NCBI GenBank assembly: GCA_048938855.1
Contig: JBHLLT010000002.1
Location: 1 to 64,000 of the forward strand
Reading direction: 5' to 3'
From: Promethearchaeota archaeon
GTDB lineage: Archaea > Asgardarchaeota > Lokiarchaeia > Sigyniarchaeales > SOKP01
Length of the DNA: 64,000 nt
The position numbers and the translations under genes were made by a program. Of this stretch, positions 41,348 to 45,927 are shown piece by piece; within the stretch, counting starts at the first letter, position 1, and the number at the start of each line of letters is the position of its first letter. The notes beneath the pieces are model-generated. The model ran no database searches, had not been told where the DNA came from, and was given only the letters and a program-made list of their open reading frames with translations.

Positions 41348-41440
41348 GGCCCTTGACGGTTGGAGTGGTCTCTGACGCTGGGCTTCAAACCCAGTTATCC
41401 TGCGGAGGGATAGGGGTTCGATTCCCCTCGAGGGCCGCCA
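41348..41440 (+). tRNA. selC: tRNA-Sec (anticodon UCA), 9/4 fold, CCA encoded
   Basis: 9-bp acceptor GGCCCTTGA/TCGAGGGCC, 7-bp D stem, CTGGG-CTTCAAA-CCCAG, long variable arm, 4-bp T stem GGGG-TTCGATT-CCCC, G73-CCA. Confidence 0.97.
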
Positions 41441-41452
41441 ATAATAATTAAA

Positions 41453-42829
41453 GTGTTTTTTATGGTTGATTTTAGCAAAATTATTGATTTTTTTAATAAA
41501 AAGAATATACCTGAAAATATGTTAAATAGAGGTCAGCTTGTTTTAAATGAGTTTTTAAGACCAATAAAAATATTTTTTGAACAAAAAGCTGCACCCAAGG
41601 ATCCTTGGACTGATGAACAAATAGAGTTCCTTCTTCAAGTTTTATCAAATATGGACACAGATAAAGACATTAATGCTGCTAGAGTAGGTGAAAGAGAAGC
41701 AAGGATTGCCTCAAAACTACATTTGAAGACTTCAGCAGGATTTTGTCATGGTGTTGGAAGAAGTGGCTTTTTAACAGCTGCTCAACCAAAAGCACCAGGA
41801 GGCTCAATAATGTATGAATTATCAAACTATTTAGCTCGAAATATATTGAGAGAAAATGGGTTACCAAACATAAAAGATGCTATAATAACACCTGTATGTA
41901 CAGGAATGTCATTAGCATTAGCATTAGGAGCTTTAAATCCTTGGCAGTGTGATAGTAATTCGGTTTATAAACGAACTGTTTTAGTTCCCCAGATAGATCA
42001 TAAATCACTTTTAAAATCAATTAACCTTATGGGTTTTAAGGCAAAAATAGTTCCAGGGAAGATTTTTGGAGATGCTGTAAGAATACCAATTGGAGATATT
42101 AAAAAAAATTTAGACGAAGATTGTTTTGCAATTATCTCAGTAACTAGCTTTTTTCCACCTCGAGAACATGATGATATAAAGGAAATTTCTAAATTTGCAA
42201 AAGAAAACAATCTTGTGCATATTGTCATTAACGCATATGGGGTTCAAAGTCCAGAATGGATGAAATTGATTCGTTCAGCAATAGATGCAGGAAGAGTAGA
42301 CGCTATTATTCAGTCTACAGACAAAAATTTTCTAACACCCGTAGGAGGAGCAATAATAGCATCACCTATAAAAGAAAATATAGTAAAGATTAGCCAAGCA
42401 TATGCTGGTCGTGCTTCTGCTACTCCAGTTGTGAATTTTCTAATTTCAATCTTATCATTGGGGATCTCTGGTTATCAAAAGTTAATTGAACAACAACAAA
42501 ATAACCGTAAAATTCTTGAAATAAAACTCAGAGCAGTTGCAAATAAAATAAATGAGAGAATACTTGATATTTATAATCCAGTTGCAGTCGCATTATCATT
42601 GGAAAACATGAAAGATGAGCATCTATATGCTCTTGGTGGAGCATTGTATAATTTAAGAGTAACAGGACCAAGAGTATATAATCCAAAAGATAATATATTT
42701 GGTACCTGTTGTAGTGATTATCTAACTCCATATATCGTAATGAATGCCGCAATTGGAGCAACTGAGAAAGATATAATTTCTGCTGTAGAGAGATTTGAAA
42801 AAGCATATAATCAAGTAGTTCAATCATAA
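41453..42829 (+). CDS. spcS: O-phosphoseryl-tRNA(Sec) selenium transferase SepSecS
   Basis: GEREAR, HGVGRSG..A.QPKAPG, TGMSL, DHKS, NAYGVQ, QSTDKNF (PLP lysine), YAGRASA; directly downstream of tRNA-Sec. Confidence 0.96.
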   Translation: MFFMVDFSKIIDFFNKKNIPENMLNRGQLVLNEFLRPIKIFFEQKAAPKDPWTDEQIEFLLQVLSNMDTDKDINAARVGEREARIASKLHLKTSAGFCHGVGRSGFLTAAQPKAPGGSIMYELSNYLARNILRENGLPNIKDAIITPVCTGMSLALALGALNPWQCDSNSVYKRTVLVPQIDHKSLLKSINLMGFKAKIVPGKIFGDAVRIPIGDIKKNLDEDCFAIISVTSFFPPREHDDIKEISKFAKENNLVHIVINAYGVQSPEWMKLIRSAIDAGRVDAIIQSTDKNFLTPVGGAIIASPIKENIVKISQAYAGRASATPVVNFLISILSLGISGYQKLIEQQQNNRKILEIKLRAVANKINERILDIYNPVAVALSLENMKDEHLYALGGALYNLRVTGPRVYNPKDNIFGTCCSDYLTPYIVMNAAIGATEKDIISAVERFEKAYNQVVQS

Positions 42830-43787: not shown

Positions 43788-43962
43788 TGGGCCATCGGGG
43801 ATTTTCATGCTTTTTTTAATCAATCAAGCTTTTTGAACCCCGGATCTCAGGTTTTTACTTTCTCAGACAATTTTACTTAATGTATGTCCGATGGTCATTT
43901 ATAAGACCTGCGCTTGTTGACCAAGCACCTAAACCTTGTTAACCAAGCTAAGCAAATGGCCC
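43788..43962 (-). tRNA. tRNA-Ile (anticodon UAU) with three introns (21/22, about 37/38, 59/60)
   Basis: GGGCCAT/ATGGCCC-A acceptor, GCTT/AAGC D stem, CAGGT-CTTATA..A-ACCTG, CGGGG/CCCCG T stem; removing 43916-43939, 43854-43899 and 43802-43831 gives a 75-nt cloverleaf. Confidence 0.88.
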
Positions 43963-44114: not shown

Positions 44115-44528
44115 ATGGCTGAAATGTTAACAGATTTGCTTCAAAATATCTATAAAAGGATTGCGCAATTAGGACAATCTATTCAACAGCTTAACGAGTC
44201 TATTAATAATCTAAATCAGAATATTGAAGACAAGATTGCAAAATTAACCTCAAAATTAGAAGAATTCTCTAATGAGATAAATCTTACTCAAACTAAACAT
44301 ATTGATGCTGTAAAGGAGATTGGAGCAGGAACAACTGATGAATTAAAAGTAATCCAAGAAGGATTAGGTTTAGCTGCTTTAAAAAACTTAATTAAAAAAC
44401 TAGAGGATTTTTCCAAGCTTTCTGAAGGTGTTCTTAACCAAGATACTGTAAATTTACTATTATCAGAAGCAATTGATTCTGTTAAAAGCCTTAAAAAATC
44501 TATTAAAGAAGAAGAGGTAATGGAATAA
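44115..44528 (+). CDS. Coiled-coil hypothetical protein
   Basis: Continuous heptad pattern; similar start and length to the next ORF. Confidence 0.75.
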   Translation: MAEMLTDLLQNIYKRIAQLGQSIQQLNESINNLNQNIEDKIAKLTSKLEEFSNEINLTQTKHIDAVKEIGAGTTDELKVIQEGLGLAALKNLIKKLEDFSKLSEGVLNQDTVNLLLSEAIDSVKSLKKSIKEEEVME

Positions 44529-44948
44529 ATGGCTGAAGCTTTATTAGATCAAATGATCCAAAAAATAAATCAGATTATGGCTTCATTAGATGGGACAATA
44601 GCTCAGATTAACCAAATGAGAGGTTCAATTAATCAGATGAGTCAGAATTTCTCTGAACAAACAGTAGCTATGACAGAAAATATTAGATTAATAGTAGAAG
44701 TCTTAAAACAATTTCGTGTGCAATCCACAAAAAGTCTTACTGACCTATCCGATGATTTTAATCAAAAAGTAAAAGAACTCTGGGAAAAAAAATCTATAGA
44801 AACAATAACGGAAGAAGAAAAGAAAGCTATTGACATTATAAAACAAGCATCTAAAGCAGTAACAGACAATCTTTATTTTGCTCAATTATTGAATATAATT
44901 CAGAGTATAAGAGAAGAAACCAATAGGATAATTAGTGCTAGTCAATAA
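44529..44948 (+). CDS. Coiled-coil hypothetical protein
   Basis: Heptads; ATG immediately follows the upstream TAA. Confidence 0.75.
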   Translation: MAEALLDQMIQKINQIMASLDGTIAQINQMRGSINQMSQNFSEQTVAMTENIRLIVEVLKQFRVQSTKSLTDLSDDFNQKVKELWEKKSIETITEEEKKAIDIIKQASKAVTDNLYFAQLLNIIQSIREETNRIISASQ

Positions 44949-45021
44949 CAAATTTTTAATTTTTTTAAACTTAGTTTTAATTTAGTTCAGTATTATATAT
45001 ATAAAAGGTGTATAAGTTTAA

Positions 45022-45927
45022 ATGCCAACAGGTTCTTTCGTTATCTTACTTCCCACTGAATCAGATTACAAAATTTTAGGCTATTATTTTAAGGAAGGAA
45101 CATCTGGTTTTGAAATAACAAACGATTTATTTTTAAGATTAAACCTTGATCATTCAAAGAACGAATTTAATCTGCTAAAAATAAAGGATCTTCAAATTTT
45201 TTCATATATTCATAAATTTAAAGGAAAACTATCTCGAAACGCTTCAGGAATTATAATTGGGCTATTATTAAACGAAGATGATAAACCAAATAAGTTTCGA
45301 TCCTCTCTTAAAGAAGCAGCAGAAGCTTTCGAGATTCCTAGTCTCAATATTCTTAAGAAATCAAAAGAACAATTTGAAGCGATATTAAAAGATGTATATT
45401 TGGAGCATTTAGAACCATTAATAGATATTCTTCAACCTGACACATTGAAAAATAGTATTATTAACATTACAAAATTAATGCTTAGTGGTGGGAAAAAGGA
45501 AAGAAAAATTGCTCAGGAACTTTTGGAAAAGGTTGAAAATGGTGAACATAACAAAATCTCGGAACATTACAATACTGCTGAGAGTGCTATGAAATCTTTA
45601 GAATATGAAAAAGCTGCAAAATTTTATAATAAAGCGGCAGAAATTGCAGAAGGTCTCTATATAATGGATATCGCAACTTCTCTTAAAGAAAAAGGTAATT
45701 TTTCCCAACAGATTCCTGATTTATCTAAAGAGAGAGAAAGAATTGTGCAAGAAGCGAGAAATGCTCTAAGAAATGAGGATTTTCATACAGCTTACACTTA
45801 TTATAAAAGAGCGAGTGAAATTTCAAAAAAATTGATCCAATTCGATAAAGAAGAAGAATATCGATTAAAAGCAAAAGCTTTAGAAGATTTTTATAAGATC
45901 GATGAAAAATATAGAAAAAATAAATAA
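45022..45927 (+). CDS. Hypothetical protein with possible longin-like N-terminus and TPR-like helical C-terminus
   Basis: N-terminal beta-beta-alpha-beta-beta-beta-alpha pattern; YEKAAKFYNKAAEIA and FHTAYTYYKRASEIS repeats. Confidence 0.55.
   Translation: MPTGSFVILLPTESDYKILGYYFKEGTSGFEITNDLFLRLNLDHSKNEFNLLKIKDLQIFSYIHKFKGKLSRNASGIIIGLLLNEDDKPNKFRSSLKEAAEAFEIPSLNILKKSKEQFEAILKDVYLEHLEPLIDILQPDTLKNSIINITKLMLSGGKKERKIAQELLEKVENGEHNKISEHYNTAESAMKSLEYEKAAKFYNKAAEIAEGLYIMDIATSLKEKGNFSQQIPDLSKERERIVQEARNALRNEDFHTAYTYYKRASEISKKLIQFDKEEEYRLKAKALEDFYKIDEKYRKNK

What the first reader, a model, noticed from the sequence alone, without database searches (positions are those of the whole stretch)
43788..43962. 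tRNA-Ile with a UAU anticodon and three introns
Seen: a minus-strand cloverleaf interrupted in the D loop (24 nt, clean BHB GCU-UGGU-UA^A/GUCA-AC^A-AGC), the anticodon loop (46 nt, only a relaxed motif) and the T loop (30 nt, UUCA-AA^A/UGAA-AA^U). The mature anticodon loop is CU-UAU-AA, with a short variable loop and A73. Established: most archaea read AUA with agmatidine-modified tRNA-Ile2(CAU) made by TiaS. UAU anticodons are typical of eukaryotes, where intron-dependent pseudouridylation occurs, and are found in only a few archaea. Inference: eukaryote-like AUA decoding in a genome that uses AUA heavily; the long structured anticodon intron may direct U34 modification.
Basis: partly seen in the sequence, partly recalled or inferred. 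Interest (0 to 1): 0.72.

Follow-up and report, generated by a model that had tools for sequence, protein, structure and literature searches.

The report
Three-intron Asgard tRNA-Ile(UAU), no TiaS
This is a real isoleucine tRNA gene, split by three small introns and carrying the unusual anticodon UAU. It very probably reads the very common AUA codon in a Loki-type Asgard archaeon whose whole class lacks TiaS, the usual archaeal enzyme for AUA; a few other archaea are already known to read AUA this way.

Summary
The minus strand 43962..43788 encodes a 175-nt pre-tRNA. Removing introns of 24 nt (D loop), 46 nt (anticodon loop) and 30 nt (T loop) leaves a 75-nt cloverleaf with anticodon UAU, a 5-nt variable loop and A73.

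- **Relatives:** among 93 distinct relatives' genes there are five intron sites. The D, variable-loop and T introns come and go, and intron-less alleles fix those exon junctions. The anticodon-loop intron is present in every gene.
- **TiaS:** it is not found in this genome, nor in any of 161 genomes of its class. I find only two CAU tRNAs, initiator and elongator Met.
- **AUA use:** AUA is 34.7 per 1000 codons.
- **Across 301 Asgard genomes:** every UAU gene I confirmed lies in a TiaS-less family, and I confirmed them in seven such families. None of the six motif hits in TiaS-positive families was a tRNA.

This way of decoding AUA is already published for Nanoarchaeum, Korarchaeum and ARMAN, and multi-intron Asgard tRNAs were published in 2024. 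The gene is therefore a new member of a known kind. This scan has already noted the same thing in at least 53 other genomes.

The initiator tRNA keeps its anticodon-loop intron just as faithfully. No RNA data could be obtained.

The parts
43788..43962 (-). Whole pre-tRNA-Ile(UAU) gene, 175 nt, G1 at 43962 and discriminator A73 at 43788. CCA is not encoded.
   Evidence: orthologues
43940..43962 (-). Exon 1 (23 nt): acceptor 5' strand GGGCCAU, U8 U9, D stem 5' strand GCUU, D loop AGCUUGGUUA
   Evidence: the acceptor strands stay complementary across 10 different sequences
43916..43939 (-). D-loop intron, 24 nt, strict hBHBh' motif (GCU-UGGU-UA^A ... GUCA-AC^A-AGC; inner helix CAAG/CUUG)
   Evidence: h 3/3, H 4/4, h' 3/3; absent in 6 of 93 distinct orthologues, with junction GGUYA|AAGCG
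43900..43915 (-). Exon 2 (16 nt): D stem 3' strand AAGC, G26, anticodon stem 5' strand CAGGU, loop C32 U33 U34 A35 U36 A37
   Evidence: the 12-mer CAGGUCUUAUAA is invariant in 92 distinct arms
43854..43899 (-). Anticodon-loop intron, 46 nt, at 37/38 (equally 38/39 because of an A run; same mature RNA). The motif is relaxed: the central helix is U33-U36 : GUAA, shifted by one. There is an inner 7-bp hairpin CGGACA/UGUCUG and a conserved 5' N-U-G-R-Y-C.
   Evidence: hairpin with compensatory changes; H pairs 91-92 of 92; present in 93 of 93 distinct orthologues; no intron-less arm in 161 class genomes
43832..43853 (-). Exon 3 (22 nt): A38, anticodon stem 3' strand ACCUG, variable loop AGAUC, T stem 5' strand CGGGG, T loop UUCAAA
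43802..43831 (-). T-loop intron, 30 nt, at 59/60; motif GGG-UUCA-AA^A ... UGAA-AA^U-CCC
   Evidence: h 3/3, H 4/4, h' 2/3; absent in 63 of 93 distinct orthologues, which read UUCAAAU or a close variant
43788..43801 (-). Exon 4 (14 nt): U60, T stem 3' strand CCCCG, acceptor 3' strand AUGGCCC, A73

Best explanation
This is the functional gene for tRNA-Ile(UAU) of a Loki-type (Promethearchaeia) Asgard archaeon. The 175-nt transcript carries three endonuclease-type introns: D loop, anticodon loop 37/38 and T loop 59/60. Inferred: a two-subunit splicing endonuclease (two EndA paralogues in the genome) cuts them out and RtcB joins the exons, giving a 75-nt tRNA to which CCA is added. Inferred from the absence of TiaS and of a third CAU tRNA: this tRNA is the cell's only reader of AUA, the ninth most used codon. 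U34 pairs with the A of AUA directly, probably after some unknown modification that keeps it from reading AUG. The same solution is used by every TiaS-less Asgard family I could inspect, so it is an old lineage trait and not a private mutation.
For: The cloverleaf after in-silico splicing is called tRNA-Ile(tat). The D and T introns fit bulge-helix-bulge motifs. There are 93 distinct orthologous genes with 10 different but always complementary acceptor stems and 4 T stems. Intron presence/absence at four sites reproduces the exon junctions. The intron hairpin covaries. Lineages with a canonical motif (C32-A35 paired to UAAG/UGAG/UAGG, then a 3-nt bulge, then the stem) splice to UAU unambiguously. 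TiaS_FLD: 0 hits in the own genome (97% complete), while controls ring in 4 archaea; 0 of 161 class genomes; 171 of 301 in the phylum sample. A full-length Asgard TiaS protein with all three Pfam TiaS domains finds nothing at E<=1. My intron-tolerant finder gives 45 tRNA loci, with only initiator and elongator CAU tRNAs. AUA is 34.7 per 1000 codons. The pattern GCGCNGGNCTTATA hits 81 of 111 genomes of TiaS-less families against 6 of 190 in TiaS-positive families. All six of those, plus the single hits in the TiaS-less families f5 and f6, are not tRNAs. True multi-intron UAU genes were confirmed in families f1, f2, f7, f16, f17, f20 and f25. EndA is present in two copies and RtcB in one.
Against: The anticodon intron of this genus fits only a relaxed motif, and a splice register with four or fewer 5' loop bases would give UAA. 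My tRNA finder is home-made and its set is incomplete (45 loci, several isoacceptors ambiguous), so a hidden CAU tRNA cannot be excluded. The genome is a 93-contig MAG with 7% contamination. An unmodified U34 would be expected to misread AUG, and no modifying enzyme was identified.
Confidence: 0.85

Rival explanations
1. The anticodon intron is needed for modification of U34 and U36 before splicing, as Pus1 needs the intron of yeast pre-tRNA-Ile(UAU). It adds to the main reading and does not replace it.
For: The anticodon-loop intron is present in all 93 distinct family genes and in every UAU gene seen in six other families, and no intron-less arm exists in 161 class genomes. U33/U34-A35(-U36) are base-paired to the intron. 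The intron 5' bases N-U-G-R-Y-C and the hairpin are conserved beyond what I can explain by the splice motif. ARMAN-2 (PMC3239211) carries a 37/38 intron in its UAU tRNA and Korarchaeum (PMC6000648) also has an intron in its UAU tRNA. C. merolae tRNA-Ile(UAU) has D, anticodon and T introns with partly intron-dependent pseudouridylation (PMC9602550).
Against: The initiator tRNA-Met keeps its anticodon-loop intron in all 29 parsed genomes of the genus, so retention is not special. Pairing of the anticodon with the intron is the normal geometry of any 37/38 intron. There is only one TruA/Pus1-family gene, as in ordinary archaea. The intron has no conserved C/D-box guide (the CUGA is not conserved). 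Mycoplasma mobile reads AUA with an unmodified U34 (PMC3575796).
Confidence: 0.2
2. Splicing uses another register or another motif, so the mature anticodon is not UAU (for example UAA), or the exon with the anticodon is removed.
For: Because of the A run, any 5' cut after four or fewer loop bases would give CUUAAAA (my reading). The strict motif search does not find the anticodon intron. It does find a cryptic motif, GUCA/UGAC, that would delete exon 2.
Against: The tRNA has a 5-nt variable loop, so it is not a Leu type. Relatives with canonical motifs give UAU only. The shifted helix U33-U36:RUAR is kept in 91-92 of 92 sequences. The cryptic D-intron/anticodon-intron pairing shows no covariation.
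Confidence: 0.04
3. AUA is really read by an undetected tRNA-Ile2(CAU) with a divergent TiaS-like enzyme, and the UAU gene is redundant or a pseudogene.
For: The tRNA set I recovered is incomplete. The Atabeyarchaeia-2 Ile-TAT gene was flagged 'possible pseudo' by tRNAscan-SE in PMC11291895 Supplementary Data 4.
Against: 0 of 161 class genomes have TiaS by profile and a full-length Asgard TiaS finds nothing. The UAU gene is conserved with compensatory changes in 93 distinct sequences and seven families. UAU genes and TiaS exclude each other across 301 genomes. The pseudogene flag is what a covariance model gives for unremoved introns.
Confidence: 0.04

Closest known systems
tRNA-Ile3(UAU) of Nanoarchaeum equitans, Candidatus Korarchaeum cryptofilum and the ARMAN lineages (PMC8450103, PMC6000648, PMC3239211)
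   Same: An archaeal tRNA-Ile with a genomically encoded UAU anticodon, in genomes that lack TiaS and tRNA-Ile2(CAU). ARMAN-2 has an intron at 37/38 and Korarchaeum also carries an intron in its UAU tRNA.
   Different: Here it is in Asgard archaea, with three to four introns per gene and five intron sites in the family. It is shared by a whole class and several further families, not isolated small-genome lineages. In this genus the 37/38 motif is relaxed.
Eukaryotic cytosolic tRNA-Ile(UAU), including the three-intron gene of Cyanidioschyzon merolae (PMC9602550)
   Same: UAU anticodon reading AUA, and an intron next to the anticodon that pairs with it. [quoted passage not shown]
   Different: In yeast, pseudouridines 34 and 36 are made by Pus1 in an intron-dependent way. 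Here no modification and no dedicated enzyme is known. Eukaryotes also have IAU, which is absent here. Common descent is not shown.
Multi-intron tRNA genes of Thermoproteales and of Atabeyarchaeia/Freyarchaeia (Sugahara 2008, cited in PMC11291895; Valentin-Alvarado 2024, PMC11291895)
   Same: Several bulge-helix-bulge introns per tRNA gene at non-canonical sites (D loop, variable loop, T loop 59/60), and a genome with two EndA paralogues.
   Different: The published Asgard survey covers other classes. It lists one Ile-TAT gene only in a supplementary table, as 'possible pseudo', and a Freyarchaeia Ile2-CAT. It does not discuss AUA decoding.
Mycoplasma mobile tRNA-Ile2(UAU) (PMC3575796)
   Same: Loss of the C34-modifying enzyme (TilS there, TiaS here) is compensated by a UAU tRNA.
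   Different: It is bacterial and intron-less. U34 was shown to be unmodified, and IleRS and the ribosome are adapted. None of this is known here.

Membership tests
Archaeal elongator tRNA (cloverleaf) | 7-bp acceptor stem, D arm with A14/G18G19/A21, 5-bp anticodon stem with a 7-nt loop (U33, purine 37), 5-bp T stem with a UUCRANY loop, discriminator base | tested here: met
   ARAGORN on the spliced 75-mer. The acceptor stem (10 sequences) and T stem (4 sequences) stay complementary across 93 distinct orthologues, though the parser itself required full pairing of both stems.
Bulge-helix-bulge (EndA-type) introns | Two 3-nt bulges separated by a 4-bp helix and flanked by helices, with cleavage after the second bulge base | tested here: met
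   D intron strict (3/3, 4/4, 3/3). T intron 3/3, 4/4, 2/3. Intron-less alleles confirm the junctions.
Bulge-helix-bulge (EndA-type) introns | The same motif at the anticodon-loop intron of this gene | tested here: inconclusive
   There is no strict motif. The central helix is shifted by one base and is kept in 91-92 of 92 sequences. The motif is canonical in other families.
Bulge-helix-bulge (EndA-type) introns | A splicing endonuclease able to cut non-canonical or relaxed motifs, and an RtcB ligase, in the genome | tested here: met
   Two PF01974 genes (C93:17001-17225, C34:19990-20238), consistent with a two-subunit enzyme. One RtcB. Enzyme activity was not tested.
TiaS-independent AUA decoding by tRNA-Ile3(UAU) | Encoded anticodon UAU in a tRNA with Ile-type features (A37, A38, A73, short variable loop) | tested here: met
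TiaS-independent AUA decoding by tRNA-Ile3(UAU) | No tiaS gene | tested here: met
   (own genome 97% complete; 0 of 161 class genomes)
TiaS-independent AUA decoding by tRNA-Ile3(UAU) | No tRNA-Ile2(CAU) | tested here: met
   Only an initiator (A1:U72, three G-C pairs in the anticodon stem) and an elongator-type CAU tRNA were found. The finder is home-made and its set is incomplete.
TiaS-independent AUA decoding by tRNA-Ile3(UAU) | Charged by IleRS and reads AUA but not AUG | not testable with these tools
   Needs biochemistry.
Eukaryote-type intron-dependent pseudouridylation of tRNA-Ile(UAU) | Intron at 37/38 pairing with the anticodon | tested here: met
Eukaryote-type intron-dependent pseudouridylation of tRNA-Ile(UAU) | A Pus1-type enzyme and pseudouridine at positions 34 and 36 | tested here: inconclusive
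   There is one TruA/Pus1-family gene only. The modification state is unknown.

The most novel reading that the evidence does not exclude
The obligatory anticodon-loop intron of Asgard pre-tRNA-Ile(UAU), with its conserved 5' UGRYC element and hairpin, is the recognition platform for modification of U34/U36 before splicing. If so, the eukaryotic intron-dependent way of making an AUA-specific UAU anticodon was already in place in TiaS-less Asgard archaea before eukaryotes arose.
Probability: 0.15. Interest if true: 0.85.

Novelty: new member of a known kind. Interest (0 to 1): 0.45.

Why it matters
AUA/AUG discrimination is a place where the three domains use different chemistry: lysidine, agmatidine, and pseudouridine or inosine. 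This gene belongs to a pattern in which about two in five sampled Asgard genomes, including the whole Loki-type class, have no TiaS and carry a UAU tRNA with an intron beside the anticodon. That is the arrangement eukaryotes use. No paper I could search discusses this for Asgard archaea; one UAU gene appears in a supplementary table as a possible pseudogene. Two questions become testable: whether the eukaryotic solution was inherited from the archaeal host lineage, and what, if anything, modifies U34 in archaea that lack TiaS. There is also a practical point. Standard tRNA finders miss or mislabel these genes, so Asgard genomes look as if they cannot read a major codon.

Tried and rejected
1. 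ARAGORN and Rfam on the unspliced gene find nothing. This is expected for three introns and is not evidence against the gene.
3. ARAGORN's third 'tRNA-Met(CAU)' at C79:16080-16184 has an implausible structure and is a mis-call of another intron-containing tRNA. Its 'Ile(aat)' with a 1284-nt intron is spurious.
4. Two further CUUAUA-type parses in the own genome are most likely other isoacceptors. C31 has a GCC..CCG acceptor stem and G73, which I recognise from memory as the archaeal tRNA-Asn type. C81 is most likely Val.
5. The second CAGGTCTTATAA hit in the own genome (C49:219610) lies in a coding region.
6. Intron-less anticodon arm: there is no exact hit in 161 genomes. The one-mismatch CAU hits lie inside a conserved protein gene.
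7. BLAST with a one-intron orthologue into other classes found nothing.
8. In the Odin-like genome G041, ARAGORN's 'Ile(tat)' at 634678-634782 is really tRNA-Thr(GGU) with a variable-loop intron. The true UAU gene lies within the 300-nt segment 153802-154101.
9. Test of descent from tRNA-Ile2(CAU) by a C34-to-U change: the pattern GCGCNGGNCTCATA gave NGGA-stem CAU tRNAs (Met or Ile2 type not resolved) in both TiaS-less and TiaS-positive families, plus coding hits. The result is inconclusive.
10. Pairing of the intron's UGACC with the D-intron's GGUCA shows no covariation.
11. A C/D-box guide in the intron is rejected, because the CUGA is not conserved.
12. 'Universal retention means function' is weakened by the initiator tRNA control.

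Full report
**The observation**

The window is G000:C49:1-64000 of a 3.95-Mb, 93-contig, 30% G+C genome. Public contigs carrying the same gene are almost all labelled Promethearchaeota or Promethearchaeia, that is Loki-type Asgard archaea.

On the minus strand, 43962..43788 reads GGGCCAU ... AUGGCCC-A. ARAGORN and Rfam see only the neighbouring tRNA-Sec and miss this gene.

- window 43916-43939, 24 nt;
- window 43854-43899, 46 nt;
- window 43802-43831, 30 nt.

This leaves 75 nt, which ARAGORN folds as tRNA-Ile(tat). It has a 7-bp acceptor stem, a 4-bp D stem, anticodon arm CAGGU-CUUAUAA-ACCUG, variable loop AGAUC, T arm CGGGG-UUCAAAU-CCCCG and A73. The precursor is far more structured than shuffles (z = -4.95).

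My motif scan scores the D intron as a strict bulge-helix-bulge: outer helix 3/3, central helix UGGU/GUCA 4/4, inner helix 3/3. It scores the T intron as 3/3, 4/4, 2/3. It finds no strict motif for the anticodon intron.

**Comparative proof that the exons are right**

BLAST and pattern searches recovered the orthologous gene in the genus, the family and public MAGs. I parsed 129 loci, giving 93 distinct precursor sequences.

There are five intron sites:

| Site | Intron size | Occurrence among 93 distinct genes |
|---|---|---|
| D loop, two sites | ~24-30 nt each | no intron in 6, one in 61, two in 26 |
| Anticodon loop | 44-60 nt | present in 93 |
| Variable loop | 29-32 nt | present in 25 |
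| T loop | 30-33 nt | present in 30 |

Genes carry one to four introns; 54 of 93 carry three.

Alleles without the D intron read ...GGUYA|AAGCG. Alleles without the T intron read UUCAAAU or a close variant. These are exactly the junctions predicted for this window.

Ten different acceptor-stem sequences and four T-stem sequences occur, always complementary. The parser required complementarity, so the evidence is that it succeeded in 129 of 133 loci.

No intron-less anticodon arm exists in 161 genomes of the class. The one-mismatch hits are at background level, and the three CAU-like ones lie inside a protein gene.

**The anticodon intron**

In 92 distinct arm sequences of the family, CAGGUCUUAUAA is invariant. 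The next bases are N-U-G-R-Y-C, and the 3' end is A-R-U-A-A-A-N-R before CCUG.

A 7-bp inner hairpin shows many compensatory changes, for example CG/UA, GC/AU and AU/UA.

The central helix of the splice motif is shifted by one base relative to the canonical form: U33-U36 pair with R-U-A-R in 91-92 of 92 sequences. Because of an A run, cutting at 37/38 or at 38/39 gives the same mature RNA for this gene.

Other lineages have a canonical motif: one member of the family (L049), family f2, and the families outside the class. There, C32-U33-U34-A35 pair with UAAG, UGAG or UAGG, followed by a 3-nt bulge ending in A38 and then the stem. That leaves UAU without ambiguity.

A splice register giving UAA is formally possible from the sequence. 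It does not fit a tRNA with a 5-nt variable loop, nor these canonical relatives.

The conserved UGRYC can pair with G29/G30-U31-C32 in 86-92 of 92 sequences, with single-sided changes only. I could not show that this helix is real. Its alternative partner in the D intron shows no covariation. This remains unexplained.

**What reads AUA**

- AUA is the ninth most frequent codon: 34.7 per 1000, 34% of Ile, more frequent than AUG at 21.1.
- The TiaS FLD profile finds nothing in this 97%-complete genome, while it rings in four control archaea.
- A full-length TiaS from another Asgard genome, carrying all three Pfam TiaS domains, finds nothing at E<=1.
- A finder I wrote recovers 45 tRNA loci. It anchors on the acceptor stem and T arm, enumerates bulge-helix-bulge introns, and passes the spliced candidates to ARAGORN.
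- Among those loci the only CAU tRNAs are an initiator (A1:U72, three G-C pairs in the anticodon stem) and an elongator-type Met. There is also one Ile(GAU).
- The splicing machinery is present: two EndA paralogues, consistent with a two-subunit enzyme of broad specificity, and one RtcB.

**Distribution**

TiaS is found in 0 of 161 genomes of the class (7 families, 30 genera) and in 171 of 301 genomes sampled across the phylum. The split by family is sharp.

I searched the same 301 genomes with a 14-nt motif, GCGCNGGNCTTATA. It covers the 3' end of the D stem, nucleotide 26, the 5' strand of the anticodon stem and the loop up to A37.

| Families | Genomes with a motif hit |
|---|---|
| TiaS-less families (f1, f2, f5, f6, f7, f16, f17, f20, f25) | 81 of 111 |
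| TiaS-positive families | 6 of 190 |

I inspected the hits:
- All six hits in TiaS-positive families are coding sequence, not tRNAs.
- The single hits in families f5 and f6 are also not tRNAs.
- True multi-intron UAU genes are present in families f1, f2, f7, f16, f17, f20 and f25. Family f7 is an Odin-like 1.42-Mb genome that I fetched whole.
- Every true gene has an intron directly after CUUAUA.

So the UAU gene and TiaS exclude each other across Asgard archaea.

**Comparison with what is known**

- tRNA-Ile(UAU) replacing TiaS and tRNA-Ile2(CAU) is published for Nanoarchaeum and Korarchaeum (PMC8450103, PMC6000648) and for ARMAN, where the 37/38 intron was spliced in vitro (PMC3239211).
- Abundant multi-intron tRNAs in Asgard archaea were published for Atabeyarchaeia and Freyarchaeia. 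The supplement lists an Ile-TAT gene as 'possible pseudo' and a Freyarchaeia Ile2-CAT (PMC11291895).
- I found no paper that mentions TiaS together with Lokiarchaea, or that discusses agmatidine in Asgard decoding.
- The red alga C. merolae has a tRNA-Ile(UAU) gene with D, anticodon and T introns and partly intron-dependent pseudouridylation (PMC9602550). This is a striking parallel but not evidence of descent.
- This scan has already recorded the same reading in at least 53 other genomes. Those notes agree with what I found independently.

The idea that the intron guides U34 modification remains a hypothesis.
- For it: the intron is always present, the anticodon pairs with it, and there is unexplained conservation.
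- Against giving this much weight: the initiator tRNA-Met keeps its anticodon-loop intron in all 29 parsed genomes of the genus. There is only one TruA/Pus1-family gene. The intron has no conserved guide-RNA boxes.

**Verdict**

This is a genuine, correctly described gene. It very probably encodes the sole AUA decoder of a TiaS-less Loki-type Asgard archaeon. It is a new member of a known kind. The lineage-wide pattern is of moderate interest for the origin of eukaryotic AUA decoding. RNA-level proof is missing because no sequencing runs could be queried.

Noticed in passing
window 41348-41436 (+) and 41453-42829 (+): A tRNA-Sec gene (Rfam 61 bits) lies 17 nt upstream of a SepSecS gene (Pfam E 4e-109). 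The selenocysteine tRNA and its conversion enzyme are therefore adjacent, about 1 kb from the tRNA-Ile(UAU) gene.
   Followed up: partly
window 43892-43897 with 43918-43922 (minus strand): The intron bases UGACC after the anticodon loop are complementary to GGUCA at the 3' end of the D intron. Together they make a cryptic bulge-helix-bulge that would excise the anticodon exon. Relatives show no covariation, so it is probably chance. The strong conservation of N-U-G-R-Y-C remains unexplained.
   Followed up: yes
G041:C1:153802-154101 (segment holding the gene) and L313 (G052): The Odin-like tRNA-Ile(UAU) genes have a T loop UCCGAAU, with C where U55 is nearly universal. They also encode the 3' CCA, as do the genes of families f16, f17, f20 and f25. 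The Loki-type family does not encode CCA.
   Followed up: no
L105 (DATKTW010000158.1): A contig of a MAG labelled Candidatus Nanopelagicaceae bacterium carries a complete Loki-type tRNA-Ile(UAU) gene (150 nt, GGGCCAU acceptor). This is probably an Asgard contig mis-binned into a bacterial MAG. Several hits are labelled Hod-, Hermod- or Thorarchaeota but carry the Loki-type gene.
   Followed up: no
G000:C49:256440-257540 (L352) and G000:C81:43440-45100 (L353): The first two of the four tRNAs inspected there, Arg(UCG) and Asp(GUC), have intact anticodon loops with their intron in the D loop and variable region respectively. So 37/38 introns are not the rule in this genome. The Lys and Phe(aaa) calls in L353 were not inspected.
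   Followed up: partly
G041:C1:634678-634782: ARAGORN calls this Odin-like gene tRNA-Ile(tat). The best parse is tRNA-Thr(GGU) with a 28-nt variable-loop intron whose hairpin contains CUUAUA. This is a caution for automatic UAU calls in intron-rich genomes.
   Followed up: yes
window 44115-45927 (+): Three ORFs next to the tRNA gene have no Pfam family, or only weak coiled-coil-type matches (SF-assemblin, COG4_N). Their function is unknown.
   Followed up: no
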